From assembly GCA_965228735.1 (NCBI GenBank), contig OZ245838.1, forward strand, positions 4,992,001 to 5,056,000: a DNA stretch of 64,000 nucleotides. Direction: 5' to 3'. Numbering within the stretch: the stretch's first letter is position 1; each line of letters begins with the position of its first letter. This DNA comes from Planctomycetota bacterium (lineage in GTDB: Bacteria; Planctomycetota; UBA1135; UBA2386). The position numbers were made by a program, and so were the translations under genes. A model generated the notes under the pieces. It ran no database searches, had not been told where the DNA came from, and saw only the letters and a list, made by a program, of their open reading frames with translations. Shown here in pieces: positions 44,627 through 64,000 of this stretch.

Positions 44627-47600
44627 TCAGCGCGGCGCGATGACGACCGTGATCGCCCGTTCGTTTCCGATCCCGCGGCTCTGGGTGAGCGTCCCGACCT
44701 TCGGGTGCTGCACGCGGAACTCCCAGCTGCCGGGACCGAGGCGGCCGAGGTCGAACGTGCCGGGGCCGGTGCGTTCGACGAGCAGCATCGCGGGCAGCCA
44801 CGGACCGTCACTGATCCGGGCCGAGATCGTCGCGCCCTCGAGCGGTTGGCCGGTTCGATCGACGGCCTGCACCGTCGTCCGCGCGCCGCTCGTGAGCACG
44901 AGCGAGAACTGCACGGAACGTTCGGGGTCGAGGCGCAGCAGATCACTCGCGCCCGGCGAAAGACCCGGGGCGCGCGCCACGATGCGACCTTCGCCGCGCG
45001 GCAGGCCGCCGAACCAGGCGCGGCCGTCGGGGTCCGTCGTCGCGAGACCGAACGCCCCGAGGGGGTGACCGTCCGCATCGACGCACAGCGCCGTCGCGCC
45101 GGCGACGGGCGCGCCGGCCTCGTCCGTGATCGTCACGACGGCGCCCGCCGCCGGTTGCGACTGCAGTTCGATCGCGCGCGTCGTGCGCCCTGCCGCGACC
45201 TCGATGTTGCGCTCGCTCGCGGCGCCGTCGCGTTCGCCGTTGCCGCCGAGCATCTCGGCCGTGACGACGCCGTAGCGGCCGTCGAGCAGGCCGGAGAACA
45301 CGAACTCACCTTCGGTGTTCGTCAGCGCCATGCCGATCGGATCGTCCCGTTCGGCGGCGTCCTCGTGGATCAGCCGCACGAGCGCCATCGCGAGCGGGTC
45401 GCCCGACTCGGCATCGACCACGCGACCGCGCAGCTCGCCGCCGGGAAGTTCGATCCGGGTGCTGTGCTCCTGCTTTCCGGCCGGGAACTCGAGGTCCTGC
45501 GGGGCGCCGATCTGCGCCATCGTCATGCCGCTGCGGATCTGCACGCGGTAGGGGCCGGGCTCGACGTTGCTGAGGATCGCGCGACCCTCGAACAGGATGC
45601 CGACGCGGATCGAGCTGCCGTCGACCCGCGTCGCCTCGACGATGCCGGTCGACAGCGGCGCGTCGCCGACCGCGACGCGCACCGTCCAACGCGTGCCCGT
45701 GATCAGGTCCGCGGCGTCGAGCTCGACCTCGGAGGTCTCGCCGGCGCGCACGCGGCAGCGCTCGGACACGACGTTGCTCGTGATCTGCTCCATCATCGCG
45801 CCGATGTCGACGCCCTTGCCGGGTTGGAAGTCGTTCATCGTGCCGGCCGAGCTGAAGATGCCGGCCGGCATCGCCTGCACGATCCACGTGCCGGGGTCGA
45901 GGTTGCGCATCTCGAACTTGCCGTCCGGCGCAAGGTCCGCCGTCACGGACAGCTGCGACCGCTGCTCCTGCGCGATGACGACGTAGTCGGCTGGTCGGCC
46001 GCCGGGTCCGACGAGCAGCTGCCCGTCGATCGCACCGCCGTGGCCGAGCGCGATGTCGAGCCCGTCGCGGACCTCGCCGGCCTCGAGCTCGACGCGTTCG
46101 CTGCGCGCGCTCGCGAAGCCATCCGCACTCGCCACGAGCTGGATGCGACCCGGCGGCAGCGCTGCGAGCCGGAAGCGACCGTCGGGGTCGGTGCGCGCCT
46201 GTTCGCCCGCACCCGCGAACATCGCGAGCACGGGGTTGTCCATCATCGGCCCCTTGCGCTTGCGCACGAGCGCGCCGCGCACCGGGTTGCCGATCTCGTC
46301 GCGCACGATGCCGGTGACCGTCGCGCCGCGGTGCAGTTCGATCGTCCCGAGATCGACGTCGCCCGTGCCGGTGACCTCGAGGCTCTTGCTGCGCTTGCTG
46401 AAGCCCGTCGCCGCGATCTCGGCCGTGAGACTGCCGGGCGGCAGCCCGGTGAGCCGGAACGTGCCGTCCTCCGACGTCACGTTCTCGATGCGCACCGGCG
46501 TCTTCATCACGAGGAACGACGTCCGCACGATGCGAACCTCGAACCGATCGACCGGCGTGCCGTCCGTCGCGGTCACGACCGTGCCCGTCACGGCGCTGAG
46601 CTGCGGCAGCGTGATCTCGACGAGGTCGTCGCCCATCTCGATGCCCGATACGTGACCCGCGGCGTAGTCGTCGTGCGCGGCCACGACCGTGAACTCGTTG
46701 TCGTCGTCGAGCCCCGTGAGTCGAAACGTGCCGTCCGCGGCGGTCGTGATCCGACTACTGCTGGCGATCGCGGCGAGCATCGTCGGACCGAGCTGCGTCG
46801 TGAGGTCGCCGATCACGGGGATCTCGGCCATCGGCTGATGCGCGACGTGCGCGCCCTCGATGGGCTCGCCCCGTTCGTTGCGCACGATGCCGGTCACGAC
46901 ACCGCCTTCCCCGAGCGTGAGTTCGACCACGTTCTCTGCCGGCGCTGCGCGCAGCATGCGCGTCTCCGACGCGCCGAGATACCCGCTCGCGCTCACCTCG
47001 ATCTCGACCTGCCCGGGCACGAGACTGTCGATCGTGCAGCGACCGTCCGCATCGGTGTCCTCGTGACGCGCGTGGATCTGCGGGATCATCGAACTCTTCG
47101 CCGCGGCCGGCGTCACGAGCACGGTCACATCCTCGATCGGCTGATCCGCGGGGTCGCGCACCGTGACGTCGAGCAGCGCGGCGGCGCGCACGCTGAGTGC
47201 GACCTCGCGAGTCTCACCCGGCACGAGCGGCGCCTGGTCGATGCGGCCGTAGGTGCCGCTGCCGCGAACGGTGAGTCCGATCGGCGCGCCCGGCACGACG
47301 CCGCGGAAGACGAACCCGTTCTCGGGCGTCGGCGTCGCGCGGCGGCGGTTGCTGGCGAGCGCGCCGAAGAACAGCCGTGGATCGCGCATCACCGACATCG
47401 GGTCGGGTTCGAGCGACAGCCGCACGGTCTCGACGGCGTCCGCGCGCTCGCCGAACAGGCGGCCGCGGATGCACGCGCCGAGCGCCGGCGCGAGCACGAC
47501 GTGCGCGGGATCGTCGACCTCGGCGTGCACGATCTCGGGCGTCGGCAGCAGGTAGAAGTCGTGTTCGAGCATCAGCCGCAGGTGCGGCTCGGGCGCGTGC

Positions 47601-48043
47601 AGTTCGAAGTGCCCGCTCGAGTCGACGGGCGCGCGCGCGATCGGGTCGCCCTTCACGATGAACGCGGGCGGCGCGCCGCCGTTCCGCCGATCCATCGAGG
47701 GCATCATCATCCCGGCCGAGTCGCTCGCCGAGCCGCGGTAGGCCAGCACGTGCGCGTCGGACAGATCGGGGCGCGCCGGGTCCGCGAGCACGAGGCCCTC
47801 GACGACGTAGTCGGGGCCGTCGACCGTCGGCTCCGCCGCGACGCGATCGACGCCGCTCCCGCTCGCGTTCACGGCGCCGGCTGCCGGCGTCGCGACACCG
47901 CCAGAACCGGCGCTGACATCGTGGCTTGGGTTCTGCTGGTTCGGACCGTCGGCGGGTGCCGGAGCACCGTCCTGGAAGTACAGCCAGAGACCGATCGCCG
48001 TGGCCAGCACGACGACGAGCCCCAGCGCGAGGGAGCGTGGCAT
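44627..48043 (-). CDS. Membrane-anchored carboxypeptidase-regulatory-like repeat protein
   Basis: N-terminal TM; repeated G.VRDE.G.PV.GA.V / TD.DG.F units. Confidence 0.82.
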   Translation of the reverse strand: MPRSLALGLVVVLATAIGLWLYFQDGAPAPADGPNQQNPSHDVSAGSGGVATPAAGAVNASGSGVDRVAAEPTVDGPDYVVEGLVLADPARPDLSDAHVLAYRGSASDSAGMMMPSMDRRNGGAPPAFIVKGDPIARAPVDSSGHFELHAPEPHLRLMLEHDFYLLPTPEIVHAEVDDPAHVVLAPALGACIRGRLFGERADAVETVRLSLEPDPMSVMRDPRLFFGALASNRRRATPTPENGFVFRGVVPGAPIGLTVRGSGTYGRIDQAPLVPGETREVALSVRAAALLDVTVRDPADQPIEDVTVLVTPAAAKSSMIPQIHARHEDTDADGRCTIDSLVPGQVEIEVSASGYLGASETRMLRAAPAENVVELTLGEGGVVTGIVRNERGEPIEGAHVAHQPMAEIPVIGDLTTQLGPTMLAAIASSSRITTAADGTFRLTGLDDDNEFTVVAAHDDYAAGHVSGIEMGDDLVEITLPQLSAVTGTVVTATDGTPVDRFEVRIVRTSFLVMKTPVRIENVTSEDGTFRLTGLPPGSLTAEIAATGFSKRSKSLEVTGTGDVDLGTIELHRGATVTGIVRDEIGNPVRGALVRKRKGPMMDNPVLAMFAGAGEQARTDPDGRFRLAALPPGRIQLVASADGFASARSERVELEAGEVRDGLDIALGHGGAIDGQLLVGPGGRPADYVVIAQEQRSQLSVTADLAPDGKFEMRNLDPGTWIVQAMPAGIFSSAGTMNDFQPGKGVDIGAMMEQITSNVVSERCRVRAGETSEVELDAADLITGTRWTVRVAVGDAPLSTGIVEATRVDGSSIRVGILFEGRAILSNVEPGPYRVQIRSGMTMAQIGAPQDLEFPAGKQEHSTRIELPGGELRGRVVDAESGDPLAMALVRLIHEDAAERDDPIGMALTNTEGEFVFSGLLDGRYGVVTAEMLGGNGERDGAASERNIEVAAGRTTRAIELQSQPAAGAVVTITDEAGAPVAGATALCVDADGHPLGAFGLATTDPDGRAWFGGLPRGEGRIVARAPGLSPGASDLLRLDPERSVQFSLVLTSGARTTVQAVDRTGQPLEGATISARISDGPWLPAMLLVERTGPGTFDLGRLGPGSWEFRVQHPKVGTLTQSRGIGNERAITVVIAPR

Positions 48044-48155
48044 GCTCGGTGGTGGCCGAACCGGCGCGCGGATCGTCGTACGGAGTTGGGCGCATTTGCC
48101 GCGATCTCGACAATCGTGCAACGCCGTGGCCGGCGCGGCACAGAAGGCCTGGACC

Positions 48156-51100
48156 ATGACCCGCGAACGCGAGAACCGCCTGTTCGAACGCTTCCGTCGG
48201 CGCGACGACGCGCGGGCGCTGGGCCGATTGTTCGACCTCACGGCGCGTGAGCTCTACCGCGTCGCGAGTCACCTCGTGCGCGATCGGCAGGAGGCGGAGG
48301 ACCTCGTGCAGACGACGTTCCTCGTCGCGATCGAGAGTCGCGCGTCGTTCCACGGGGACGCCGATGTGTTGCCGTGGCTGCTCGGCATTCTGGCGAACCG
48401 CGCGCGTGACCTGCGGAAGCGGGCGAGTCGGCGGCAGGCGCGACCGCTGTCGTCGATCGTCGACGAATCCGCGTCGCAGCCCGAAGACGAGAACGCGACC
48501 GACCCGGTTGCGCGCGCCGCGGACGGCGAGCTCGCCGCCGCGACGAAGGTCGCGGTTCGTTCGATGCCCGAACCGTACCGCCACGTGCTCCTGCTCCATC
48601 TCGAGCACGGCCTGTCGGGCCAGGAGATCGGCGAAGCGCACGACCGGCAGCCCGCGACCGTGCGCAGTCAGATCCACCGCGGCCTCGAGATGCTGCGGCG
48701 CGTGTTGCCGCGCGGGTTCGGGGCGGCGGGTGCGGGCGTGTTCGTCGGGGCCGCGTTGGGGCGGACGGCGAAGGCGGAGATGAAGCGGCGCGTGCTCTCG
48801 GCAGCGCGGTCGCACGTGCCGGTCGCCGCCGGCGTGACGGGAGTGGTGCTGGCCATGAAGAAGACGATTGCGCTGATCGCGGTTGCCGCAGTGGTGGCGG
48901 TCGCGGTCGTTCTCGAACCGTGGGCCGATCGTGCGGCCGGAGTCGTCGAGTCGCCGGGTGCGGCGAACGTGCAGGCCGCGACGGTCGACGATCGTGTGGA
49001 GCCGGCGGACGACACGGGGGTAGTCGCCGCGCCGCGGGTGACGCCGAAGCGTGAGTCCGTCGCGATCGATGGTGCCGGGGCGCCGTCGACGCTCCGCGTG
49101 CGCGTGAGCTGGAGCGACAACGAACCTGCCAACGCCGTGACCGTGCGGATGCGCGCTGCCGGCCCCGACGGTCAGCGGGCCGAACGGCGGGCGGTGACCG
49201 ACGCGCTCGGAGTTGCCGAGTTCGTTGCGGTGTCGCCCGGTGAGTACGTCGTGAGCGGGGATCGCGGCGGCAGCGCCGCGGTCGAAGTGCTCGCGCAGAG
49301 CGAGGCCAATGCGGAGCTCGTGATCCCGGAAGGAGTCGACGTTCGCGGCATCGTGAAGGATGCGGATCGTGTTCCGGTTGCAGGTGCGAGCATCTGGCTG
49401 TCGCCGACGGTCGATTCCCTTTCGGACGGGATTCGCGGCCTCGCAGTGACGGCGGCCGATGGGCGGTTCGAAGTGCGCGATGTCGAACGGGCGCGGCTGA
49501 TCTCGGCCACGAAGGAAGGTGAGGGAGCGGCAGTTGCGCAGCGCGTCGGTGGGGTGGTTGGCGGCGTGGTCGAGCTCGAGTTCGAGCTCCTTGGCGCCGG
49601 ACCCGGTGTGCTCGAGGGTGTCGTGCTCGACCCCGCTGGCAACCCGTTGCCGTGGGCGCTCGTGCAGTACGGCTACGACCACCCGAGCCGCCGTTCGCCG
49701 GAGCCACGCTCCACACCGGTGAACGACACCAGGACCGACGCGGACGGGCGCTTCCGCCTCGCCGGGCTGATGGCTGGACCGCCCGGTGCGCACGTGTTCG
49801 TCATGGGCGAAGGCGCGGCGGTGTGGCTCGACCGGGTGCCGATTCCGGCCTCGCGCGGTCGCCGGTTCATCACCATTCGACTGCAGCGCGGCGCGACGTT
49901 GCGAGGAACCGCGCGACGGATGGACGGGGAACCGGTTCCGGCGACGGTCCGCGTCTACTGGGACGATATCGAACCACGTGAAGGTTACACGTACAACGGA
50001 CCGACCTGGGCACGGTCGGAGGGTGTTGCGGTGGCAGACGGCAGCTTCGAAATCCGCAACCTGCGGCCCGGTCCGGCATTGATCCGCGCGGAGCGAAAGG
50101 AGGATGAACTCGCGATCGAGCAGATGGAGTTCGTTGCTGGAGAGGTTCGGCGCTGGGACCCACGACTCGGTTCGGGCCTCACGATCTCGGGTCGCGTGGT
50201 CGACGAAGAAGGGCGCGGTCTCCCTGACTACCTGGTGTCCGCAAGTGCAGCGAAAGCTGTAACGCGGGTACTGCCGAGCAGGACGAACGCAGCGGGTGAG
50301 TTCACGATCGAGCGCGTGTTCGCGGTTGACTACTCACTGCGCGCTAACGACAGCCGAGGCGGGATGAACGCCTTTGGTGTCGAGGCGGTCGCCAGGCCGG
50401 GGAAACCGATTCGTCTGGTCGTCCCGGCGGAGAGGATCGCAAATGCCAGGATCACGGGTCGGGTGCTCGGGCCCGATGGTCAGCCCGTGTCGAGTCTGAG
50501 CGTGACGGTGTCGCGACTCGGGAGGGACGGCAGGGTCGACACGAGTTCCATGCGCGCGAAAGCCGAGGCGAGGTTTCGATCCAAGCTGCTCTGGCCGGGC
50601 ACATATCGGGTCGACGCCTACTCCAAGGAGCATGGTCATCTCGATCTTGGACTGCACGACGTTGCGCCGAGCGAGGAGATCGACGTCGGTACGGGGCAAT
50701 ACGAACGACCAGGGGAACTCATCGTACGAGTTGTCGATGCCGACGGAGTCGCGATACGCGATGGCGTCGTGATTTATCGACGAGAAGGCCGAGGCTCGAC
50801 ACGCGGGCTGGTTCTCAGTTCCGGGGAGGCCCGAATGCGGGCGCAGCCAGGACGGGTTCGCGTCTCGACTCGCGGATTCCGCCTGACAGCGGCCTCCGTT
50901 GCCGTTGATGTACCTGCCGGTGGTCGAGGCATCGCACAGTTGGTCGTGCCACACGGATTCGAACGACGCGTGCAGTATCCGGCCGTACTGCACAAGAGCA
51001 CCGAACTGATCGTCGTGCTCCGCGACCAAAGCGGCAGGACTGTCAACATCGGCGGTGGACGATGGGACAACGTGGGGGAAGCGATGACGATGACCCGTCG

Positions 51101-51224
51101 TTTCGCCCCCGGCCGCTACACCCTGACGCTCGAAGTCCCCGACGGCCGCAGCAGCTCCGTCGACTTCACCGTCGACGCCGTTCCCGATCCCGACGCGTTG
51201 ATCGTGCTGCCGTCACCGTGGTAG
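48156..51224 (+). CDS. ECF sigma factor fused via a TM to carboxypeptidase-regulatory-like repeats (paralog of 39862..43218)
   Basis: AEDLVQTTFL, WLLGILANRAR, ATVRSQIHRG; linker; TM; repeats. Confidence 0.88.
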   Translation: MTRERENRLFERFRRRDDARALGRLFDLTARELYRVASHLVRDRQEAEDLVQTTFLVAIESRASFHGDADVLPWLLGILANRARDLRKRASRRQARPLSSIVDESASQPEDENATDPVARAADGELAAATKVAVRSMPEPYRHVLLLHLEHGLSGQEIGEAHDRQPATVRSQIHRGLEMLRRVLPRGFGAAGAGVFVGAALGRTAKAEMKRRVLSAARSHVPVAAGVTGVVLAMKKTIALIAVAAVVAVAVVLEPWADRAAGVVESPGAANVQAATVDDRVEPADDTGVVAAPRVTPKRESVAIDGAGAPSTLRVRVSWSDNEPANAVTVRMRAAGPDGQRAERRAVTDALGVAEFVAVSPGEYVVSGDRGGSAAVEVLAQSEANAELVIPEGVDVRGIVKDADRVPVAGASIWLSPTVDSLSDGIRGLAVTAADGRFEVRDVERARLISATKEGEGAAVAQRVGGVVGGVVELEFELLGAGPGVLEGVVLDPAGNPLPWALVQYGYDHPSRRSPEPRSTPVNDTRTDADGRFRLAGLMAGPPGAHVFVMGEGAAVWLDRVPIPASRGRRFITIRLQRGATLRGTARRMDGEPVPATVRVYWDDIEPREGYTYNGPTWARSEGVAVADGSFEIRNLRPGPALIRAERKEDELAIEQMEFVAGEVRRWDPRLGSGLTISGRVVDEEGRGLPDYLVSASAAKAVTRVLPSRTNAAGEFTIERVFAVDYSLRANDSRGGMNAFGVEAVARPGKPIRLVVPAERIANARITGRVLGPDGQPVSSLSVTVSRLGRDGRVDTSSMRAKAEARFRSKLLWPGTYRVDAYSKEHGHLDLGLHDVAPSEEIDVGTGQYERPGELIVRVVDADGVAIRDGVVIYRREGRGSTRGLVLSSGEARMRAQPGRVRVSTRGFRLTAASVAVDVPAGGRGIAQLVVPHGFERRVQYPAVLHKSTELIVVLRDQSGRTVNIGGGRWDNVGEAMTMTRRFAPGRYTLTLEVPDGRSSSVDFTVDAVPDPDALIVLPSPW

Positions 51225-54066: not shown

Positions 54067-55113
54067 TCAGTCCGCCGACGCGAGCGACTGATCGAGCATG
54101 TCGCTGTAGCGCTTCTCGCCGCGGCCCTTGCCGCTGTCCTTGTGGTAGCAGTAGCCCGCGATCAGCGGCAGGATCGTCGTGGCCTCGCCGTAGACCATCT
54201 GTTCGAAGCTCGTCGAGACCTTGCCCCACGAGCTCGCCTCCTTGAGCGTCGAGCCCGACAGCGCGCCGTCGCGTTCGTCGGCGACGGTGATCTGGATCGC
54301 GTATTTGTGCATCGAGGCCTCTTCGCCAAGGATGTCCGCCGCGACGACGATGTCCTGTGCGAAGTTCTTCGGCACGCCGCCGCCGATCATGAACAGGCCC
54401 GTATCGGCGGCCGCCATCTTGATGCGCGTGAGCTCGAGGAAGTCCTTCGCGGAGTCGATGCTCAGCGTCGGCTTGCCGACGAGGCCGTTCTTGTACTGGT
54501 GCTCGACGAGGCCGAAGCCCGCGCTGCAGTCGCTGAACGCCGGGCAGAAGATCGGCACGGCCTTCTCGTAGGCGCGCAGCACGATCGACTCCTTGGTCTT
54601 GCCGTGGTCCTGCAGGTGCTTGCCCATCGCGGCGATGAACTCGCGTGAGCTGTGCGGCCGGGCTTCCAGCGAATCGGCGATCTGCTTGCACGTGTCGTCC
54701 GTGATGCGCAGCTCGTCCTCGTCGATGTAGGTGTCGTAGATGCGATCGATCGACAGATCACGCAGCGCGTTGTCGTCGATGAACGGCGTGCCCTGCCAAT
54801 GGCTGAAGCCGAGGCCCTCGAAGAAGTCCTGGTCGACGATGTTGGCGCCCGTCGACACGATCGCGTCGACCATGTCGCGCTCGAGCATCTGCAGGATGAC
54901 CTTCTTGAGTCCGGCCGACACGAGCGAGCCCGCCAGGCACAGGACCACGGCGCAGTCCTTCTCCTGCAGCATCATCTCGTAGATGCGCGCGGCACGAGCC
55001 GTGTTGCGGGCTTGGAACGCCATCTTCTCCATCGCGTCCACGAGCGGGACGGGGTTGAACGTGTCCAGGGAGAGGTGTTCGACCTTGGTCTTGAGGAGGT
55101 CCTGCTTGTTCAT
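54067..55113 (-). CDS. speY: Deoxyhypusine synthase-like protein (bacterial SpeY type, homospermidine pathway)
   Basis: AIVSTGANIVDQDFFE, DRIYDTYIDE, GGGVPKNF, DGALSGSTLKEASSWGKV. Confidence 0.8.
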   Translation of the reverse strand: MNKQDLLKTKVEHLSLDTFNPVPLVDAMEKMAFQARNTARAARIYEMMLQEKDCAVVLCLAGSLVSAGLKKVILQMLERDMVDAIVSTGANIVDQDFFEGLGFSHWQGTPFIDDNALRDLSIDRIYDTYIDEDELRITDDTCKQIADSLEARPHSSREFIAAMGKHLQDHGKTKESIVLRAYEKAVPIFCPAFSDCSAGFGLVEHQYKNGLVGKPTLSIDSAKDFLELTRIKMAAADTGLFMIGGGVPKNFAQDIVVAADILGEEASMHKYAIQITVADERDGALSGSTLKEASSWGKVSTSFEQMVYGEATTILPLIAGYCYHKDSGKGRGEKRYSDMLDQSLASAD

Positions 55114-55209: not shown

Positions 55210-56280
55210 CTACTTCAGGCCGAGCGCCTCGGCGAAGCCGCGGTGGCGTTCCTGCGCCGGACTCGACGTCATGAGCCCCTGCAGCTCGACGATGACCCCG
55301 CCGTCCCCGAACCGGGTCCGGGCGTAGGCCCCGGCAGCGCGGCCGATCGCGGTGTTGTCGCCGCCGATGAAGCAGGTGAACCCGTCGTCCTCGCCGCCGA
55401 GCTCGCGGTCGATCACGATGACCTTGATGCCGGCGTCGACGGCCTCCTTGCAGACCGCTGCCAACGCGAGCGACTCCTTGGGCGAGATCAGGATCGCGTT
55501 GAAGTTCTGGGCGATGAAGTCGCGCACGATGCCGCGTTGCACCTCGACGTCGTCGTTGGCGGAGCGGTAGTGGTACTCGATCTGCGGATACCGCTTCGCC
55601 GCCGCTTCGAGGTCGCGGCCCATCTGCTGCCGCCACGGCTCGTCGTCGGTGCATTGGCTCATGCCGATGCGGAACACGACGTCGATCCGTGGCTCGGTCG
55701 ACAGGACGCCGGCGTGTTGCTGCCGCAGGTTGGCGAGCACGAACGCGCCCGGCGACGTGATGCGGCGACCGCCGGCCGCGATCGACGCCTTGGTGTACTC
55801 GATCGTCCCGAGCGGAATCCGTTTCGGCAGGTCGATGCCGCTGCACGCGAGTAACGCGAGGTCGATCGCCTCGGCGCCGCACGTCGGATACGCGAACGTC
55901 GCGTCGATGAGGCCGTCGCGGACGAGCTGCTGACCGTGGCCGTCGCCGGGCAGGCCGTCGACGCCGATGATCGTGATGCCCTTGCGACCCTTCTGCCGGC
56001 ACGCCTGCGCCGCGCCCTTGGCCATCGGGTCGTTGTGGGCGTAGATCAGGTCGATCTCAGGCAGCCGCTCGAGCACGGCCTCCATCTCGCGCTGCGCGAC
56101 GTCGCCCTTCCAGCGGGCATCGGCCTGGTGGCGCACCACGAACGTGCCGTCCTCGTTCTGCATGACGCCGTCCGTGCCGCCGCCGGCTGCGTCGCCGTCG
56201 CTGTCGCCGCACGCCGCGCCGAGCGCAGCGACGATCAGGAGGAGCGGGTTGGCGAACGGCGAATGGTGGGGGCGGGTCAT
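55210..56280 (-). CDS. Sugar ABC substrate-binding lipoprotein, RbsB-like, circularly permuted
   Basis: GAAC lipobox; IYAHNDPMA..IIGVDG..ATF.YP precedes IGMSQ..EPWR..ISP..IDR..GGDN..ERHRGF. Confidence 0.9.
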   Translation of the reverse strand: MTRPHHSPFANPLLLIVAALGAACGDSDGDAAGGGTDGVMQNEDGTFVVRHQADARWKGDVAQREMEAVLERLPEIDLIYAHNDPMAKGAAQACRQKGRKGITIIGVDGLPGDGHGQQLVRDGLIDATFAYPTCGAEAIDLALLACSGIDLPKRIPLGTIEYTKASIAAGGRRITSPGAFVLANLRQQHAGVLSTEPRIDVVFRIGMSQCTDDEPWRQQMGRDLEAAAKRYPQIEYHYRSANDDVEVQRGIVRDFIAQNFNAILISPKESLALAAVCKEAVDAGIKVIVIDRELGGEDDGFTCFIGGDNTAIGRAAGAYARTRFGDGGVIVELQGLMTSSPAQERHRGFAEALGLK

Positions 56281-57230
56281 TGGCGACGGTCCTGCAGGAG
56301 AACGGCTGCGAGGATGATCCCTCCTTGCAGCACGAGGCGCCAGTGCGTGGGCACGCCGTTGAGCGCGAGGACCTTCTCGAGCAGGCCGAGCGTCAGGACG
56401 CCGAGCAGGGCGAGCCACACGCTGCCGCGGCCGCCGAGCAGGCTGACGCCGCCGACGACGACGGCCGCGATCGTCTGCAGCTCGAGCAGTTCACCGGCCG
56501 ACGGATTGCCCTGCACGTTGCGCGCGACGTGGCAGATGCTCGCGAGCCCCGCGCCCGCGCCGCTCAGCACGTAGGTCCAGGTCAGAACGCGCGCGGTCGG
56601 CACACCGGAGAGCCGCGCGGCCTCCGCGTTGCCGCCGGTCGCGAGCAGGTGGCGGCCGAAGACGCTGCGCTGCTGCCAAACCGCGGCCGCGATCGCGACG
56701 GCGACGAACAGCAGGCCGGCGACCGGCACCGGGCCGACGCGACCCGCGAGCACTTCCCAGGACCCGGGGCCGAAGCTGTCGGCCGGCACGAAGCGCGAGC
56801 TCGCTGCCTGCTCCGCGAGCTCCGGCAGCCAGCGCGCGAGGCCGCGCGCGATCACCATCGTCGCGAGGGTCGCGAGGAACGGCTGCACCCGCAGCCGCGT
56901 GACGAGCAGGCCGTTGGCGAATCCGGCGAGCGCGCCCACAGAGATCGCAGCCGCGCTCGCGACCGGCCACGGCAGCTCCGCGCGCAGCGACAGCCCGGCG
57001 AACGTCATCCCCGACAGCGCCAGCACCGCGCCGACGGACAGGTCGATGCCGCGCCCGAGGATCACGAGACACTGCCCGACGGCGCAGATGCCGACCGTCG
57101 CGAGCGCACCGAGCAGGTCGAGGTGCAGCTGCGGCCGGAAGAACGCGCCGTCCCCGTGGAAGACCGCGCCGATCCCGAGCACGAGGAGCAGCGCCGCAAG
57201 CGCGCGCACGGTCGGGGCAGCGGGTCGCAT
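56277..57230 (-). CDS. Sugar ABC transporter permease (RbsC family)
   Basis: GIDLSVG, PFLATL, GGNAEAARLSGV, ELQTIAAVVVGGVSLLGGRG. Confidence 0.92.
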   Translation of the reverse strand: MRPAAPTVRALAALLLVLGIGAVFHGDGAFFRPQLHLDLLGALATVGICAVGQCLVILGRGIDLSVGAVLALSGMTFAGLSLRAELPWPVASAAAISVGALAGFANGLLVTRLRVQPFLATLATMVIARGLARWLPELAEQAASSRFVPADSFGPGSWEVLAGRVGPVPVAGLLFVAVAIAAAVWQQRSVFGRHLLATGGNAEAARLSGVPTARVLTWTYVLSGAGAGLASICHVARNVQGNPSAGELLELQTIAAVVVGGVSLLGGRGSVWLALLGVLTLGLLEKVLALNGVPTHWRLVLQGGIILAAVLLQDRRQ

Positions 57231-57236
57231 CGGTGG

Positions 57237-58295
57237 TCAGTCGGTGGGCGGGGCGGAGAAGAAGCGGACGAACTCGGCCTCCACGGCAGCCGGCGCGAGC
57301 GCGCTCGGCCGCAGCTCGCGCGACACCTTGCCGTACTCCTGCTCGCTCGGCACGCCGAAGTAGAGCTCGGGGATCGGCGCCGTCGGCGGGTCGGCGAGCC
57401 ACTGACCGCCGTTGCGGTCCGGTTCGAGTTCCGCGAGGCGCGCGGCGAGCGGGCGCAGATCGCGGCGCGCCGGCGCCTGGATCGTGACGAGCTCGAACCA
57501 CGACTCCGTGCGATCGTGGTAGCGGTAGCGCGGTCCGTCGCTGCCGGTCGCGACGTGCAGCACGCGATAGGCGCCCGCGAGGGTGTTGAGCGTCATCCGA
57601 TGCCGCGGCCCGCCACCGCGGAGCACGCCGAAGCCGAGTTCGCGGTGGTGTCGACGCTCGAGCGCCCCGTCGAGCCCCGCGGTGATCTCTTCCTGCACGC
57701 GCGCCATCTCGGCTTCGTAGAGCGCGCCGTAGCCGCCCGGATGATCGAGCACGGACACGGCGTTCTCCATGAGCCACTCGTAGCGTCGCAGCGAGCGCTC
57801 GGCCGCGTCCGCGCAGCGGTCGAACACGCCGCGCACCGGCGACTCCGCGGTCGCGAGGTTGGCGACGATCCGGTCCACCGCGAAGCCGCGCCAGCTCTGC
57901 CAACTGCCGAAGTCCCCCGTCGCGGCGGCCGCCCGCAGCAGCTCCTCCCGCGCGGCCGCGACGTCGGGTTGCAGGATCGCAAGCAGCGAACCGAACCCGT
58001 CCGTGTCGTAGTGGTCGTTCACCACGAGCTCGGCCTCGCCGAGGAAGCGGGCCTGCGCCGAGGGCTCCGCCCGGACGAAACGGAAGCAGATCTCCGTGCT
58101 GAGGTCGGCCTTCCACGCCCCGGGCGTTCGGTTGCCGGGCCAGTGCGACAGATTGGGCCCGGCCGGGGTCATGCCGTCGACCGACAGATGCGGCGCGGCG
58201 ATCCCGGTCGGCCCGGCGAATCCGAGTTTCAGGCGTGCGAGGGGCGATTCTCGAGATGGCAATGGCATCGGCACCAGCGGCTTAGGACCGGGCAT
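57237..58295 (-). CDS. Conserved hypothetical protein (DUF6687-like)
   Basis: SVDG..NLSHWPGNRTP..KADLSTE..NDHYDTDG motifs; family name recalled, not searched; start may be 58268. Confidence 0.65.
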   Translation of the reverse strand: MPGPKPLVPMPLPSRESPLARLKLGFAGPTGIAAPHLSVDGMTPAGPNLSHWPGNRTPGAWKADLSTEICFRFVRAEPSAQARFLGEAELVVNDHYDTDGFGSLLAILQPDVAAAREELLRAAAATGDFGSWQSWRGFAVDRIVANLATAESPVRGVFDRCADAAERSLRRYEWLMENAVSVLDHPGGYGALYEAEMARVQEEITAGLDGALERRHHRELGFGVLRGGGPRHRMTLNTLAGAYRVLHVATGSDGPRYRYHDRTESWFELVTIQAPARRDLRPLAARLAELEPDRNGGQWLADPPTAPIPELYFGVPSEQEYGKVSRELRPSALAPAAVEAEFVRFFSAPPTD

Positions 58296-58535: not shown

Positions 58536-58612
<77 letters not shown>

Positions 58613-58615
58613 CAC

Positions 58616-58667
58616 AGAACCCCTCGGAATGGCCCTCTAGGGCATGTTCCGAGGGGTTCTTCGTTTC
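58616..58667 (+). terminator. Hairpin/terminator after tRNA-Asp
   Basis: 14-bp stem AGAACCCCTCGGAA/TTCCGAGGGGTTCT followed by TCGTTTC. Confidence 0.65.
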
Positions 58668-58851
58668 AGGGGCGAAACGGGGGAATCCGCGTCTTTCGCG
58701 AGAGCCGTGTCACCCAGGGTGTCACCGGGCCGCGAGCCGCCTCGACGAGTGCGAGGTTGCGCTCCAGATACGACGACGCCCGGCGATCGAGGAACCTTGG
58801 CGGGGGACCGATCGTCGGGCGCTGTCCGAGCAGGAGGATCACCCGCGGCGA

Positions 58852-60435
58852 ATGCCGAGGGGGTTGCTCGTGACCGGCCACGATACAGCGGCCGTTCTGG
58901 CCGGCCAAGTGTCCGGGCAGCTTCGCGGCGAAGCGCACCTGTGGTTGCCGCGGGGCGTTGGGAATCCCGGCCTGCTCCTGGCACTCGCGCTCGATCGGGA
59001 CGCCGGCTGCCCCGACAACTGCACGGCGATCGGTCGGATGTTCGGAGTCGACCGCGGCACGGTCCGCGAGTGGAGACGGAAGCTCGAGGCCGACGGTCTT
59101 GTCGTGCCGTGCAACGGCTTCATCGTGGCGACGGACCTGGGTCGGGAGCGGCTCAAGGCGGGCTGCGACCCATTGCCGCGTCCAGTTCTTCGCGCACGGC
59201 GCAAGCCGTCGCCGGCCGTTCTCCGTGCATGCAGCGTCGTCTACACGGACGCTGTCGGGTGGCAGTCCGGACGCCGCGGATGTCGTAGCGACGCGGAGCG
59301 TGCGGCGCTGGCCGGGGTCGACCGGAAGACGGTCATCGCGGCCCGGCGCGTCTTGGTCGCCGGTGGTCTGGTGCAGATCGAGGAACTCCGGCGAGGACGG
59401 GCCGACCTACGGCGGGCTCGTTTGACCCAGGACCGCCGGGCGACTCACGGCCGGCCGATGTCCGAGACCCGTGCGAAGCAACTCGCAACCCGTGCTGCGC
59501 GTGGTCGTTCGCGTGTTCGCGAAGGTGGGGGATTCACGGACAGCGAAGGTGCGGCACTCTCGGACCCACCCATGCAGTCCCCGAAGGGGACGTTACCCAT
59601 GCAGGCGCCGCCGGCGGCGCAGGATGGTGCCGCTGCGCAGCTTCGACCGGATGGTTGTGCCACCCAGCAGAGACCTGAGCGCCGAACTCCCGCCACCGCC
59701 ACGTCGGCTGTGACTCTCGGGACGGCGTCCGCGGCCGAGGTTCTTCGGCAGGTGCTGCCGGACTTGCCGGCCGCGATCCGAGACCGAGCGTCCGAGCAGC
59801 AGCCGCACCGCGATCGGGTGCGCGAGGGCCTGGCACGCGCCGACCTCGCCCGCCTGCGTCGCGTGCCGGTCGTCGCAGCGATCGACGCCGTGCTGGGGCT
59901 CGCCGACGTCGACCGAGTGCCGAACGCTGGGCCGCGCTTGGCCGGGCAGTTGGTGGTCCGCCGCCGCCGCCGCGCGGTCGCGCTCGCCGCGGCCGGTCTC
60001 GACGTCGACGACGTGCTTCAGGTCGCCGTAGACGCCGCGACGGACCCGGTCCGCTCGGTCGGCGCAGTCGTCGCGCAGCGGTGCGCCCGGCTAGCCAGCG
60101 GCGCAGTCGGGGTTTGCGATGTCGTCCGTCGATCGCGCCGCGACCTGGACCTCGATCAGCGGCTCGCGGTGCTGCGCGGTGACGCGCCCGAACGGCGGCA
60201 CGACCCCGAACCTCGTGACCACGCCCCCCACCAGCGACTTGCGATGCTGGCCGCGGCCGAGGCTGCGCGGACCGACGACTGGCGCCGGGTCGACGCGCTC
60301 GTGCGCCGGCACGACTTGTCTCTCGACGAGGTCGCCGACGCGGCCGGCGTCTTCGAACGCGAAGTGCAGGAGCACCTCGACGACCTCACTTCCGGGCAGC
60401 TTCAGCGGTTCAACGCCGGGAGGGCGACCGCGTGA
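58852..60435 (+). CDS. Multi-HTH replication-initiator-like protein
   Basis: Two similar wHTHs (GVDRGTV..LEADGLV; GVDRKTV..LVAGGLV), low-complexity linker, C-terminal HTH LSLDEVADAAGV; start uncertain. Confidence 0.6.
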   Translation: MPRGLLVTGHDTAAVLAGQVSGQLRGEAHLWLPRGVGNPGLLLALALDRDAGCPDNCTAIGRMFGVDRGTVREWRRKLEADGLVVPCNGFIVATDLGRERLKAGCDPLPRPVLRARRKPSPAVLRACSVVYTDAVGWQSGRRGCRSDAERAALAGVDRKTVIAARRVLVAGGLVQIEELRRGRADLRRARLTQDRRATHGRPMSETRAKQLATRAARGRSRVREGGGFTDSEGAALSDPPMQSPKGTLPMQAPPAAQDGAAAQLRPDGCATQQRPERRTPATATSAVTLGTASAAEVLRQVLPDLPAAIRDRASEQQPHRDRVREGLARADLARLRRVPVVAAIDAVLGLADVDRVPNAGPRLAGQLVVRRRRRAVALAAAGLDVDDVLQVAVDAATDPVRSVGAVVAQRCARLASGAVGVCDVVRRSRRDLDLDQRLAVLRGDAPERRHDPEPRDHAPHQRLAMLAAAEAARTDDWRRVDALVRRHDLSLDEVADAAGVFEREVQEHLDDLTSGQLQRFNAGRATA

Positions 60436-60701
60436 AGTCCGCGACCTACATCGGCATGCAGAGGCACCGCCGCATCGATGGCGGCGAGCACCTCCGCGGC
60501 CAGTTCGACCGCGACATCGCGATTGCGGCTGGCACGGAAGTCCTGCTGCGGCGTGATGGCTACGACTACGTGCTGCAACTCGTGGCGCCGGGGAAGCCCT
60601 GGGACCCGACCAAGCGCGAGCGCGCGGCGGTCGAACTCGCCAACGCACCGCGTGGCGCGCTTCGACGTGACCCGCGGCATGAACCCGAGGACATGCCATG
60701 A
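60432..60701 (+). CDS. Small hypothetical protein
   Basis: GTGA overlap with the upstream gene; GGGAGGG RBS. Confidence 0.55.
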   Translation: MKSATYIGMQRHRRIDGGEHLRGQFDRDIAIAAGTEVLLRRDGYDYVLQLVAPGKPWDPTKRERAAVELANAPRGALRRDPRHEPEDMP

Positions 60702-60846
60702 CACGCGCGCTTGTCTGCCAAGTCGCACGTCCTGCGGATTTCGCCCGGCAAGTCGGGCACCGGCCGCCGCGCGCGTGCGGCCAGTCTCTCCTTCCGCCGC
60801 ACAGCGCCACGTTGGCGGAACGCGGCAACCTCTGTGATCCGAAACC

Positions 60847-61674
60847 ATGACTACGAACGACACCAGCGACGGCGGCCAGACCGCCGACATTCTTGCGGCG
60901 CTGCAGCAGCGTCGCGTCGATGAAACGACCGCCGCTGCCCAGCAGCACGCGGCCGATACCAGCGTCTACTGGGGGGCCGTCCGGCACTTGGCCGGCGACG
61001 GCACCGAGGCCCCGCCCGTGGACGCTCTCGACGCCGCCCTGCGTCGACTCGGCACCGTTCCGGGCGCCCTCCGCGCCGACGCCGACGCTCTCGCCCGACT
61101 GCTCCGCCTGCGCAACGCGGGCGACATCTCCGAGGCGCGCGAGGGCGTCGATGCAGCCCGCGTTGCCCTCGATGCCGACCTGCAACAAGCAAGCGACCTG
61201 CGCGCTCAGGCCGACCGGGTCGAGCGGGAGGCGCACGCCAAGCTGGGCGCCGCCGAGAGAGCACTGGCCCGCACCGAGAAGGCCGCCGCGGACGCCACGC
61301 GGCTCACCGAGGCGCTTCGCGCGCGCGGCTGCCCGCTCAACCCGACCGATGAGCCGGCGCCGGCGCCGAAACGCCGCGACCTCCATCGGGCACGGACCCT
61401 GATCGACTGCTTCGTTGACGGGCGCGCTCGTCGGGCGGGCGAGGAGTTCGTGACGCATGTGTCGCCCCGCGATGGCGTTCTCGAACTCGTTGGCGCACAA
61501 GGCGAGCCCGCGGCCCCGCGCTGGAACGGGGGCGACCCCGTGCCCCTGAAGCGCGGCGACGACAGTGGCATTGACAGCCGCGATTGGGGCGGCGTTCTCG
61601 GCGTCGATGGATTCCGGGCGCGCCAGGAGGCTTTGGCCGCGCAGGCGGCGACCGCTGAGGGGGCTCCGAAGTGA
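60847..61674 (+). CDS. Hypothetical coiled-coil protein
   Basis: Ala/Arg/Glu helical core; small C-terminal beta domain (RARTLIDCFVDGRARRAGEEF). Confidence 0.65.
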   Translation: MTTNDTSDGGQTADILAALQQRRVDETTAAAQQHAADTSVYWGAVRHLAGDGTEAPPVDALDAALRRLGTVPGALRADADALARLLRLRNAGDISEAREGVDAARVALDADLQQASDLRAQADRVEREAHAKLGAAERALARTEKAAADATRLTEALRARGCPLNPTDEPAPAPKRRDLHRARTLIDCFVDGRARRAGEEFVTHVSPRDGVLELVGAQGEPAAPRWNGGDPVPLKRGDDSGIDSRDWGGVLGVDGFRARQEALAAQAATAEGAPK

Positions 61675-62078
61675 CCACGAACATCGACCTGGCCGCGGCA
61701 GCGCGCACTCTCTACGGCAGCGGCACGACTCCACCCCCGGCGCCTGTCGGTCCGCCTTCACCGTCGAAGAACCTAGGCTTCGATGAGGCAGCAAAGTTGG
61801 TCTACGCCGACCAGCCGGCGCCGGCCCAGGAACTGCCGACCTCCCGCGACTTGAACGGCATCAGCGTCTTCGGCAGTCGCGATGATTGGCGCGAGGAGAT
61901 CCTGGGCCGATACGGTGCGGATCTCGACATCGCCACGCGGCTCGCGGCCCGAGGGCTGCTCGCCGATTCGGCTGATCCAGCTGCTGCGCGCCGCGCGATT
62001 GGGGAGCACGGCATCACGCCACGAGAGTTCCGCCGACTGGTGGAGATCGGAGCCGCACTGCGGACGGGGTCACGATGA
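61671..62078 (+). CDS. Hypothetical protein, capsid-scaffold-like features
   Basis: GTGA overlap; AARTLYG / AAKLVY motifs, Pro-rich linker, WREE...IG helical C-terminus. Confidence 0.55.
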   Translation: MTTNIDLAAAARTLYGSGTTPPPAPVGPPSPSKNLGFDEAAKLVYADQPAPAQELPTSRDLNGISVFGSRDDWREEILGRYGADLDIATRLAARGLLADSADPAAARRAIGEHGITPREFRRLVEIGAALRTGSR

Positions 62079-62491
62079 CCGCGTTGCCCCCGGAGAATCT
62101 GGTGAAAACTGGTGCGACTGACCCCGAGCGCGATGATCGCGGTCGTTTCGTCGCAGGCCACGTTGGCCGCGGTGGCAGGCCGAAGGGCTACGACTTCCGC
62201 AAGATCGTTGCCGAGGAGTCCGCCAAGCATGGCGTGCCGGTCGAAGTTGCCGTGTGGGCGATCTACACGGCCCTACTGAAGCGAGCGCGCCGGGGCGACG
62301 TTGCTGCGGCGCGAATCCTCCTCGACCGACTCTGCCCTCGGGACGAGACGATCCACATCACCGACGATCGCCCCCGAATGACCGACCTGGAGCGCGGCGT
62401 CCGAATCGAGCAACTGCTGGCGATCGCCGCGCGACGAAAACGAGAGGCGGAGGAAGGCGACAGTTCCGGTGATGATGACAGCGCCGAATGA
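62075..62491 (+). CDS. Terminase small subunit-like protein (DUF5681-like)
   Basis: ATGA overlap; RDDRGRFVAGHVGRGGRPKG; ARRGDVAAARILLDRL. Confidence 0.65.
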   Translation: MTALPPENLVKTGATDPERDDRGRFVAGHVGRGGRPKGYDFRKIVAEESAKHGVPVEVAVWAIYTALLKRARRGDVAAARILLDRLCPRDETIHITDDRPRMTDLERGVRIEQLLAIAARRKREAEEGDSSGDDDSAE

Positions 62492-63047
62492 CCGCATCGA
62501 ACCAGGTTGGATTCGACGCGCCATGTCCGCGTGGCGCCGGCCCGACCGTCTTCCGAAGATGGACTCGCTCGGCGTCGTCTCGTTCGCAACGCACACGATC
62601 ATCGGGCGCCGACATGATGTTTGGCTCGACGTCGCGCTGGTGCATTCGCACCCTCGCGGCACTGACGCCCCCACGGTCGCCGGCTGGGTTGTCGCCGCGG
62701 TGCGGGACGAGGCCCCGATTCATGTCGTTACCGACGGCGCATGCTGCCCGGTTCTCCACCTCCGCCAACTCGGGGTGCAGATCGAGAATGTCGGCGAGGC
62801 GGACGTCTGGGCGTTGCGTCAGCGCCTTCGGGACGCGCTCGACCCACGCACCATCGACAGCATCGTGCTACCGCCGGATCCGTGCCTGCTCGACGCGCTG
62901 GCGGGCCAGGGGGACGAGGATGGACGGGGCCTGGCGACGATCCTCGCGATGGCCGACACGCCGCGACGATCGGACGTCCTCGACCGTGCGCGGTGTGATG
63001 ACCGACGCGAGTTCAATCCGCTGAGTCCGCGCGCGCTGTGGCGCTGA
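62472..63047 (+). CDS. Stand-alone terminase large subunit C-terminal nuclease-like domain, degenerate
   Basis: WIRRAMSAWRRPDRLPKMDSLGV, TIIGRRH, PTVAGWV, APIHV, LRDALDP..IVLPPDP.LL; GGAGG upstream. Confidence 0.6.
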   Translation: MMTAPNDRIEPGWIRRAMSAWRRPDRLPKMDSLGVVSFATHTIIGRRHDVWLDVALVHSHPRGTDAPTVAGWVVAAVRDEAPIHVVTDGACCPVLHLRQLGVQIENVGEADVWALRQRLRDALDPRTIDSIVLPPDPCLLDALAGQGDEDGRGLATILAMADTPRRSDVLDRARCDDRREFNPLSPRALWR

Positions 63048-63075
63048 CGCCACCGCCGGTATCGTCGCATCCATC

Positions 63076-63363
63076 GTGCGCCTCCTGCTACGACGCGCCC
63101 CGGTTGAGCCGAAGCCGCGCAGACTCGGCGATGAGGTGCGGGTGCCGCAACTTCTCGCGGCGGAACTGCAGGTCATCGCGGCACGCTGCGACGGCGAGCT
63201 ACGCGCGCTGCAAGCCGCCGCCCTGCGCGCGCACAGCGACGTTCGGCGTGAGCTTCGACGCAGGGTCGCCGACGCCGAAGCTGACGTCGCTGCGGCGCGC
63301 AGCGGCGCTCAGGAGGCAAGGCGTTGGGCAGGCGAACTGACCGCGGCCTATTGCCTGGAGTGA
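63076..63363 (+). CDS. Small helical hypothetical protein
   Basis: Co-oriented ORF, Ala/Arg/Glu-rich; start uncertain. Confidence 0.4.
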   Translation: MRLLLRRAPVEPKPRRLGDEVRVPQLLAAELQVIAARCDGELRALQAAALRAHSDVRRELRRRVADAEADVAAARSGAQEARRWAGELTAAYCLE

Positions 63364-63496
63364 CGTGCGACTTGAGGGTTTGTCGCACGCAGCTGAGGCG
63401 GGTCGCGCTACCGCGCCTGCGGAAGTGGGCGATTCCGCAAGCCGCTGGCCAGACTAGCGGCGCGACGCGGAGTTCTGTTCGGGGAGAGTCGTCGCC

Positions 63497-63934
63497 ATGG
63501 TCGCCATGAGAACCGCACTGGTCGTCGCACTCCTGCATGTTGGAGCCCTAGCGCTGGTTGCCTTGCTGCGGAGCACTGCTGACCTGAGCGTTCGCTCCGT
63601 CGCTATTCGTGGCTCGTTCTCGCGGATTGAAGTTCCTGGAGTCGCTGAGCATGCGCCAGACACTTGGCAGGCGTTGCTCGACGCTGCAACGCCATGGCAG
63701 CCTGCGGTGACGAGCACGGCACCGACTTCGAACACGTCGAAGGGCGGGACTGATAGATGCGGCGTCCGATTCGGCGCAAGCGCCCAACGCCCGAACATCG
63801 ACCTTGGCGCTACTCGACTGCGCGTGATTCCACTCGAACTACAGGGAGAACTGCGCGCGGGCGGGCGCAGGGTTCAGGCTCTAGGCGATGGCGTGCAACT
63901 CGTGTCATGGCCGCAGTTCGGCGCCATCCGTTGA
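63497..63934 (+). CDS. Hypothetical protein with an N-terminal TM
   Basis: GGGGAGAG upstream; hydrophobic N-terminus; atypical codon usage. Confidence 0.3.
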   Translation: MVAMRTALVVALLHVGALALVALLRSTADLSVRSVAIRGSFSRIEVPGVAEHAPDTWQALLDAATPWQPAVTSTAPTSNTSKGGTDRCGVRFGASAQRPNIDLGATRLRVIPLELQGELRAGGRRVQALGDGVQLVSWPQFGAIR

Positions 63935-64000
63935 ACCTGGCACCTTGGATGCTCGGCTTGCGGAAACGGGAGGATTCGCAGGCCCGGCACCGCGAGCGGC

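What the first reader, a model, noticed from the sequence alone, without database searches (positions are those of the whole stretch)
55210..56280. Naturally circularly permuted RbsB-type sugar-binding protein
Seen: after the lipobox, the segment that is normally C-terminal (QADARW..AQREME..IYAHNDPMA..IIGVDG..ATFAYP..PKRIPLGT..TK; about 56142-55790) comes first. A linker of about 35 aa follows, then the normally N-terminal part (FRIGMSQ..EPWRQQM..ISP..VIDR..GGDN..ELQG..ERHRGF; about 55680-55210). Known: type I periplasmic binding proteins have the opposite order. The two parts add up to one complete domain in an intact frame. Inference: a real permutation, perhaps from a tandem duplication trimmed at both ends.
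Basis: partly seen in the sequence, partly recalled or inferred. Interest (0 to 1): 0.7.

Follow-up and report, generated by a model that had tools for sequence, protein, structure and literature searches.

The report
Circularly permuted sugar-binding lipoprotein family
This gene encodes a sugar-capturing lipoprotein whose last 125 residues are moved to the front, a real rearrangement shared across one Planctomycetota family; it is predicted to fold normally and likely feeds an arabinose-type sugar to the neighbouring permease, and an unrelated, already solved protein is cut at the same loop.

Summary
Confirmed. ORF 56280-55210 (356 aa) matches the fructose-binding domain 2X7X in swapped order (aa 203-353 = 7-154; 51-159 = 164-273). 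It is not a misassembly: contigs from 4 studies span the gene, and 76 of 120 listed homologues share the order. AlphaFold gives one two-lobed domain (pLDDT 92); nine pocket positions equal 2X7X; a model docks it on the adjacent permease dimer (0.76, best control 0.01).

The kind is known: TpMglB-2 is a published permutant with another cut, and PDB 5ER3 has this same cut. New here: this family arose independently of the 5ER3 type (AU p 1e-36), so the loop was cut at least twice. The operon has no ATPase. Of 49 orthologues, all 9 beside the permease keep 9/9 pocket residues; all 40 without it keep 0-6, yet stay open reading frames. A fucose-isomerase-fold gene and a ribulokinase-like gene follow the intact state, pointing to D-arabinose or a similar furanose. 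Tandem duplication as the origin is plausible; the parent double was not found. The scan noted other permuted planctomycete proteins on other DNA.

The parts
55210..56280 (-). Circularly permuted class I (cluster B) sugar-binding lipoprotein, 356 aa (P0001)
56209..56280 (-). Signal peptide ending in the lipobox cysteine C24 (predicted lipid anchor)
   Evidence: sequence; C24 in at least 90% of 64 aligned homologues
55765..56142 (-). aa 47-172, the normally C-terminal part; carries pocket positions W57, N83, D108, Y131
   Evidence: 2X7X 164-273; Pfam profile 159-251
55678..55764 (-). aa 173-201, linker joining the old C- and N-termini; predicted helix 177-188; family-specific
55222..55677 (-). 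aa 202-353, the normally N-terminal part; carries W216, R217, D291, R292, R345
   Evidence: 2X7X 7-154; Pfam profile 1-147
56277..57230 (-). RbsC-like ABC permease; its stop overlaps the start of the binding-protein gene; the coupling-loop motif is kept
   Evidence: Pfam BPD_transp_2; alignment; complex model
57237..58295 (-). DUF6687 gene, first gene of the unit, lying where canonical relatives have the ATPase
58536..58612 (+). tRNA-Asp(GTC), divergent; fixed landmark of the orthologous locus
54067..55113 (-). Deoxyhypusine-synthase-family gene (NCBIfam 1,9-bis(guanidino)-5-aza-nonane synthase, above cut-off); a neighbour in only some relatives

Best explanation
The gene encodes a naturally circularly permuted class I sugar-binding lipoprotein that is predicted to fold as a normal two-lobed clamshell and likely captures a D-arabino-configured furanose sugar (most likely D-arabinose, otherwise D-fructose) for the adjacent RbsC-like permease, which would have to borrow an ATPase encoded elsewhere. 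Shown: the swapped order, the cut in the helix-to-strand loop of the C-lobe, the 33-aa linker, conservation across one family, and the absence of an ATPase gene in the locus. Predicted: fold, lipid anchor now attached to the C-lobe, docking on the permease dimer through both lobes. Inferred: ligand (D-arabinose about 0.4, D-fructose about 0.25, other about 0.35), shared ATPase, and origin by in-frame duplication followed by loss of both ends.
For: Fold: mean pLDDT 92.3, pTM 0.87; collinear match to 5ER3 at Z 26.5, rmsd 3.7, 290 residues, 19% identity, next row Z 14.6. Pocket: nine positions identical to fructose-binding 2X7X (alignment; fructose binding from the PDB title, and PMC3404733 passages), each kept in at least 114 of 130 canonical relatives; four correspond by motif to RbsB D89, R141, N190, D215, named crucial in bioRxiv 10.1101/559328 (passages). 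Partner: complex score 0.76, best of 3 controls 0.01; the mark was reached by 116 of 157 solved complexes and 2 of 215 mismatched pairs; runs agree in at least 88% of contacts, partner pLDDT at least 85; no linker residue is among the listed contacts; the pass may come from likeness to solved ABC complexes. Co-loss: 9 of 9 orthologues beside the permease keep 9/9 pocket residues, 40 of 40 without keep 0-6. Selection: dN 0.85-1.08 times that of DUF6687 in 4 intact pairs. Ligand: 4 of 9 scanned loci of close relatives hold a fucose-isomerase-fold gene, one also a ribulokinase above the NCBIfam cut-off, one DUF2961/GH172, one GH116; GH172, GH116 and a fucose isomerase are D-arabinan/D-arabinose enzymes in PMC10115798 and PMC10509167 (passages). 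Fucose_iso_C is in 8 of 9 intact against 1 of 35 eroded genomes, a ribulokinase-like gene in 7 of 9 against 3 of 35; controls show no such pattern (xylose-isomerase-like 8/9 and 31/35; DUF2961 9/9 and 29/35).
Against: No binding, expression or transport data. The genome has only two RbsA-type ATPases, each inside its own complete operon, and no family ATPase tested groups with those beside close relatives; sharing of a CUT2 ATPase was not tested. The co-occurrences rest on only 3 independent pairs on well-supported branches (sign test p 0.25), so the Fisher values (4e-7, 1e-4) overstate. G001 is intact but no isomerase or kinase was found with these queries (90% complete). This genome's isomerase is only 21-27% identical to those beside canonical relatives and lies about 0.94 Mb away; it has no NCBIfam name and no PDB match. 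Pocket identity alone favours fructose. No tandem double of the parent subfamily was found.
Confidence: 0.62

Rival explanations
1. The protein still binds sugar, but the permease-plus-binding-protein pair no longer transports: without its own ATPase it is a relic on the way to the eroded state seen in most of the family.
For: No ATPase in any family locus examined; the one ABC ATPase hit near an intact copy (G014) is a 269-aa NMT1-type transporter subunit. 40 of 49 orthologues lack the permease and have lost pocket residues. Five loci of close relatives (L041, L042, L044, L049, L055) have ATPase-permease-binding protein in a row.
Against: Pocket and permease coupling loop are kept across genera at 47-70% protein identity; intact copies evolve at the rate of DUF6687; all 9 intact genomes hold at least one RbsA-type ATPase.
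Confidence: 0.2
2. The lipoprotein's lasting role is not sugar import but a structural or partner-binding role tied to DUF6687, with sugar binding a dispensable extra.
For: Eroded copies stay open frames beside DUF6687 in 36 of 40 cases, with dN/dS 0.16-0.74 in 15 pairs; 43 of all 49 orthologues show a lipobox-like motif; the linker profile still matches many eroded copies; an eroded copy is predicted to keep the fold (pLDDT 91, best match 5ER3 at Z 19.8).
Against: Eroded copies evolve 1.4-3.4 times faster than DUF6687; 11 of 13 further DUF6687 loci gave no copy; Nei-Gojobori ratios are biased at this G+C; the model of the eroded copy was guided by an alignment that held intact members.
Confidence: 0.13
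3. The order is an assembly artefact or a recent broken chimera in one genome.
For: None found; only contigs, not raw reads, could be laid.
Against: Four studies assemble the same sequence; 76 homologues at 41-96% identity share the order; 79 of 81 permuted rows form one clade.
Confidence: 0.01

Closest known systems
PDB 5ER3, ABC transporter solute-binding protein of Rhodopirellula baltica SH 1 (released 2015)
   Same: Same segment order and same cut loop: collinear over 290 residues, Z 26.5. A relative (G226; E 7e-98 to 5ER3) starts at residue 156 and ends at 155 of the T. maritima glucose-binding protein. Same phylum.
   Different: 19% identity. Its family is closest to 2H3H/2QVC-type proteins and has its own canonical relatives at 53%; a shared origin with this family is rejected (AU p 1e-36; tested through the G226 relative, not 5ER3 itself). 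The G226 gene lies beside an ATPase. No held paper names 5ER3.
TpMglB-2 (Tp0684) of Treponema pallidum, 'Type Ic / Cluster Bc' (PMC4990184)
   Same: Natural circular permutant of a class I sugar-binding lipoprotein that still binds sugar and closes; a new lobe crossing joins the old termini (passages).
   Different: Its cut is in the N-lobe (the first three strands move to the end; the C-lobe order is unchanged); here the cut is in the C-lobe. Structural match only Z 14.6 over 211 residues. It binds glucose.
BT1754 periplasmic domain (PDB 2X7X), fructose sensor of Bacteroides thetaiotaomicron
   Same: Best sequence match in the PDB (E 3e-52); all nine pocket positions examined are identical.
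   Different: Canonical order; part of a hybrid two-component sensor, not an ABC lipoprotein.
RbsB and the CUT2 sugar ABC importers (RbsABC, YtfQ)
   Same: Peripla_BP_4 fold; RbsC-like permease next door; four key RbsB residues kept by motif.
   Different: Permuted order; below the NCBIfam cut-offs for RbsB (79 against 337 bits) and YtfQ (88 against 510); no ATPase gene in the locus.

Membership tests
Class I / cluster B binding proteins (Pfam Peripla_BP_4) | Profile match above the curated cut-off | tested here: met
   152.6 bits against 35.1, in two stretches
Class I / cluster B binding proteins (Pfam Peripla_BP_4) | Two alpha/beta lobes with the pocket between them | tested here: met
   Predicted model, pLDDT 92; fold searches return this class
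Class I / cluster B binding proteins (Pfam Peripla_BP_4) | Canonical N-to-C segment order | tested here: not met
   Halves swapped against 2X7X, RbsB and others
Class I / cluster B binding proteins (Pfam Peripla_BP_4) | Binds a sugar and closes on it | not testable with these tools
   Only residue conservation
TpMglB-2-like 'Type Ic / Cluster Bc' | Circular permutation of a class I sugar-binding protein | tested here: met
TpMglB-2-like 'Type Ic / Cluster Bc' | Cut in the N-lobe, C-lobe order unchanged, collinear with TpMglB-2 | tested here: not met
   Cut lies in the C-lobe; only 211 residues align to 6BGC
5ER3-type permutants | Same cut loop and collinear structure | tested here: met
5ER3-type permutants | Descent from the same permutation event | tested here: not met
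   AU p 1e-36 and 2e-54, using the G226 relative of 5ER3
RbsB (ribose-binding equivalog) | NCBIfam score above cut-off | tested here: not met
   79.1 against 337 bits; the swapped order lowers the score
CUT2 sugar ABC importer | RbsC-like permease partner | tested here: met
   Adjacent gene; co-loss; complex model 0.76 against best control 0.01
CUT2 sugar ABC importer | Cognate RbsA-type ATPase | tested here: inconclusive
   None in the locus; two elsewhere, each in its own operon

The most novel reading that the evidence does not exclude
One helix-to-strand loop of the C-lobe is a natural permutation hotspot of class I sugar-binding proteins, cut independently two or three times (this family, the 5ER3 family, possibly an Armatimonadia pair); and in this Planctomycetota family the permuted lipoprotein, once stripped of its ATPase and permease, has been kept by most members as a pocket-less pseudo-binding protein with a new role beside DUF6687.
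Probability: 0.35. Interest if true: 0.7.

Novelty: new variant of a known kind. Interest (0 to 1): 0.5.

Why it matters
Class I binding proteins are common biosensor scaffolds, and where to cut them is a design question. Nature has used this loop at least twice, keeping a fructose-sensor-like pocket, and this family supplies a 33-residue linker that could be tested as a ready-made module. It also gives close canonical relatives (about 60% identical to the early-branching permutants) for a paired test of what permutation, and moving the lipid anchor to the other lobe, does to affinity and transport. The graded series from intact to pocket-less orthologues at one fixed locus is a tidy case for how transporter parts decay or are reused. 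It is not a new class: permuted sugar-binding proteins are in print and this topology is already in the PDB.

Tried and rejected
Misassembly: rejected. A DNA duplicate of the gene in the genome: none. Descent from the 5ER3 family: rejected. A tandem parent: 0 of 8 (names and Pfam lists only), 1 of 120, 6 full and 1 partial among 80 loci and 16 of 150 rows are doubles; the 8 proteins placed on trees lie outside the parent subfamily, the rest were not placed. Linker as a decayed signal peptide: no significant match to 44 canonical leaders (best E 0.14). A separate origin for L041/P0256 and P0077: their linkers differ and L041 sits in a canonical clade (97/93), but one clade is not rejected (AU p 0.084 and 0.26). 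Stand-alone ATPases of G026 and G014 as the lost cognate: they pair with each other, not with the cognate group. Sigma-70 promoter scan: 0 sites against 0.3 expected. ESM Atlas: only generic Peripla_BP_4 clusters, no structure search. Sequencing runs: no RNA holder listed. OpuAC as a permutation precedent is recalled; the passages searched in PMC2861598 did not mention it, so it is not used. CIRPIN preprint: no passage on periplasmic binding proteins. The BT1754 structure paper is not held, so its contact residues were not checked. The profile search of 401 phylum genomes missed the permuted G226 protein that a Pfam search found, so distant permutants are undercounted.

Full report
Observation. 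The minus-strand ORF 56280-55210 encodes 356 aa: a signal peptide ending in C24, the part that is normally C-terminal (aa 47-172), a linker, then the part that is normally N-terminal (aa 202-353). Pfam Peripla_BP_4 matches in two stretches in swapped order. The best PDB match, the fructose-binding domain of BT1754 (2X7X), aligns as aa 203-353 = 7-154 and aa 51-159 = 164-273. Against the close canonical relative P0098 the two parts meet at its residues 181-186, so the cut is in one loop, with nothing missing and nothing doubled. The model places that loop between a helix and the next strand; that it belongs to the C-lobe follows from the known class I fold.

Not an artefact. In 4 of 4 runs from 4 studies a single contig spans the gene; these are contigs, not raw reads, and one run may be the source of this DNA. 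One strain differs at 6 places in the gene, 5 of them synonymous. Of the best 120 of 860 homologues, 76 are permuted and 44 canonical. Six of 10 permuted homologues looked up carry a Planctomycetota name, one is named only 'bacterium' and three have no name. In the genome's class, 47 of 90 other genomes of its family match at E 1e-30 (one of them only through a canonical protein), and the 12 matches among 248 genomes of other families are canonical by their coordinates.

Fold and pocket. AlphaFold2 gives one domain with mean pLDDT 92.3 and a helix in the linker. Nine positions chosen as pocket residues (W57, N83, D108, Y131, W216, R217, D291, R292, R345) are identical in 2X7X and kept in 114 to 130 of 130 canonical relatives. 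I chose them by motif from the RbsB residues named in bioRxiv 10.1101/559328 (passages) and from recall of the 2X7X site; the BT1754 structure paper was not held. A complex model of aa 38-356 with two copies of the adjacent permease scores 0.76 against a best control of 0.01; the mark was reached by 116 of 157 solved complexes and 2 of 215 mismatched pairs, runs agree in at least 88% of contacts and partner pLDDT is at least 85. Both permuted parts contribute contacts and no linker residue is listed. The pass may reflect likeness to solved ABC complexes, and the calibration holds only roughly for this job.

What is already known. TpMglB-2 is a published natural permutant that binds glucose and closes normally; its cut is in the N-lobe (PMC4990184, passages) and it aligns over only 211 residues at Z 14.6. 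PDB 5ER3 from Rhodopirellula baltica aligns collinearly over 290 residues at Z 26.5, rmsd 3.7, 19% identity. A Pfam search of 10 hand-picked phylum genomes found one protein with the swapped order (G226); it matches 5ER3 at E 7e-98 over its length and starts at residue 156 and ends at 155 of the T. maritima glucose-binding protein. So this topology is in the PDB. I found no paper on it or on this family in the held library (searches; DUF6687), which lacks most subscription journals; no supplements were read. Engineered permuted RBP constructs are mentioned in PMC10601554 (passages).

Origin. With both parts put in canonical order, 79 of 81 permuted rows form one clade nested among canonical proteins (support 97, 211 rows; 97/97 on 53 rows). 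The G226 protein lies in another subfamily with canonical relatives at 53% identity, and one clade with this family is rejected (AU p 1e-36; 2e-54 without the two outliers). The same loop was therefore cut at least twice. L041 (Armatimonadia) and P0256 share a different linker and sit within a canonical clade, a possible third event, but one origin is not rejected (p 0.084 and 0.26). For the route, the linker is 30-33 aa in the 12 permutants printed, about a C-terminal tail plus a leader; P0077 keeps the leader motif of canonical P0095 in its linker; and P0134, a single record from a sister subfamily, is a double with 99% identical copies joined by the copied leader. Doubles are common in the wider family (16 of 150), but the 8 placed on trees are outside the parent subfamily. 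Duplication and trimming is the likeliest route, not a shown one.

Locus. The order tRNA-Asp (divergent), DUF6687, permease, binding protein is conserved. Five loci of close relatives have ATPase, permease, binding protein in a row; here DUF6687 stands where the ATPase would be. This genome has two RbsA-type ATPases, each in its own complete operon. All 9 intact genomes have at least one, and no family ATPase tested groups with those beside close relatives. The permease keeps its coupling-loop motif, so a borrowed ATPase is possible but untested.

Intact and eroded copies. Among 49 orthologues, 9 lie beside the permease and all keep 9/9 pocket residues; 40 do not and keep 0-6 (38 keep 5 or fewer). 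In 36 of those 40 DUF6687 directly adjoins the gene, one has neither neighbour and three have too little upstream DNA to judge. Counts in very diverged copies depend on the alignment. A genome-wide search of 38 genomes found a permease at 54% identity or more only in the 7 intact ones included; others were 44% or less. Eroded copies are open frames with dN/dS 0.16-0.74 and dN 1.4-3.4 times that of DUF6687 (15 pairs), against 0.85-1.08 in 4 intact pairs. One eroded copy is predicted to keep the fold (pLDDT 91; 5ER3 at Z 19.8), though its alignment held intact members. Of 13 further DUF6687 loci, 11 gave no copy, one an eroded copy, and one ends at a contig edge. On a DUF6687 tree the state changes 4 times, giving only 3 independent pairs on well-supported branches, all concordant (sign test p 0.25).

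Ligand. Among 9 loci of close relatives scanned (43 of their 93 long ORFs), 4 hold a fucose-isomerase-fold gene, one also a ribulokinase above the NCBIfam cut-off, one DUF2961 and one GH116. One relative is fused to DUF2961. GH172/DUF2961, GH116, a fucose isomerase and a kinase make up D-arabinan use in PMC10115798 and PMC10509167 (passages). Fucose_iso_C is in 8 of 9 intact genomes, 1 of 35 eroded and 5 of 11 without a copy; a ribulokinase-like gene in 7 of 9, 3 of 35 and 6 of 11. Controls do not follow the state: xylose-isomerase-like 8 of 9 and 31 of 35, DUF2961 9 of 9 and 29 of 35. The isomerases of G014 and G686 are 72-75% identical to those beside canonical L045 and L046, but this genome's is only 21-27% identical to them. 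D-arabinofuranose is fructofuranose without C1 (general chemistry), which fits a pocket like that of 2X7X. D-arabinose is the best single guess, about 0.4; fructose about 0.25.

Verdict. A real, conserved circular permutation and a new variant of a known kind. What is added is the independent reuse of one cut loop, a ligand lead, an operon without ATPase, and a family-wide series of pocket-less orthologues. Earlier scan notes describe other permuted planctomycete proteins near 5ER3; a look-up by this sequence found none. I had reached 5ER3 and TpMglB-2 before reading them. Interest 0.5.

Noticed in passing
window 58562-64000 and beyond (genome 5,050,562-5,064,426): An element of about 13.8 kb appears integrated at tRNA-Asp: 73 bases from the tRNA 3' part onward recur at genome 5,064,355-5,064,426 (94.5%), G+C falls to about 0.645, and it holds a weak HTH ORF and a weak DUF5681 ORF.
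   Followed up: partly
window 57237-58295: DUF6687 is single-copy in 30 of 38 family genomes searched and usually beside tRNA-Asp; no held paper names it. Its HYDTDG motif recalls DHH phosphoesterases (recalled, untested).
   Followed up: partly
L292:1465-2643 (G226:C5): A 392-aa permuted sugar-binding lipoprotein of the 5ER3 family beside an ATPase gene; its canonical counterpart is present in this window's genome near 1.700 Mb (45% and 37% identity over the two parts).
   Followed up: yes
L041:2849-4135; P0256; P0077: Permuted proteins with the same cut but other linkers; L041 (Armatimonadia) lies in a full ATPase-permease-binding protein operon.
   Followed up: partly
L256:5837-7354 (G026) and L257:399-1850 (G014): RbsA-type ATPases with no permease or binding protein in the DNA fetched; they pair on a tree. 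The G014 gene is near a contig end.
   Followed up: partly
P0134: A 670-aa tandem double with 99% identical copies joined by the copied leader; a single record, so an assembly error is possible.
   Followed up: partly
L240:12357-13925 (genome 4,110,357-4,111,925): A stand-alone 523-aa fucose-isomerase-fold gene with no NCBIfam name and no PDB sequence match.
   Followed up: partly
window 48000-51224: A 1074-aa ORF with ECF-type sigma regions 2 and 4 fused to carboxypeptidase-regulatory-like repeats, divergent from a 1204-aa repeat protein at 44627-48241.
   Followed up: no
genome 2,435,327-2,436,949: An ORF with reverse-transcriptase-like motifs (YADD), probably a group II intron, right after the permease of a canonical sugar ABC operon (named from recall).
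   Followed up: no
L172, L174, L175, L177, L180, L182: Where the binding-protein gene is absent, a different protein of about 380 aa lies after DUF6687 in several genomes.
   Followed up: no
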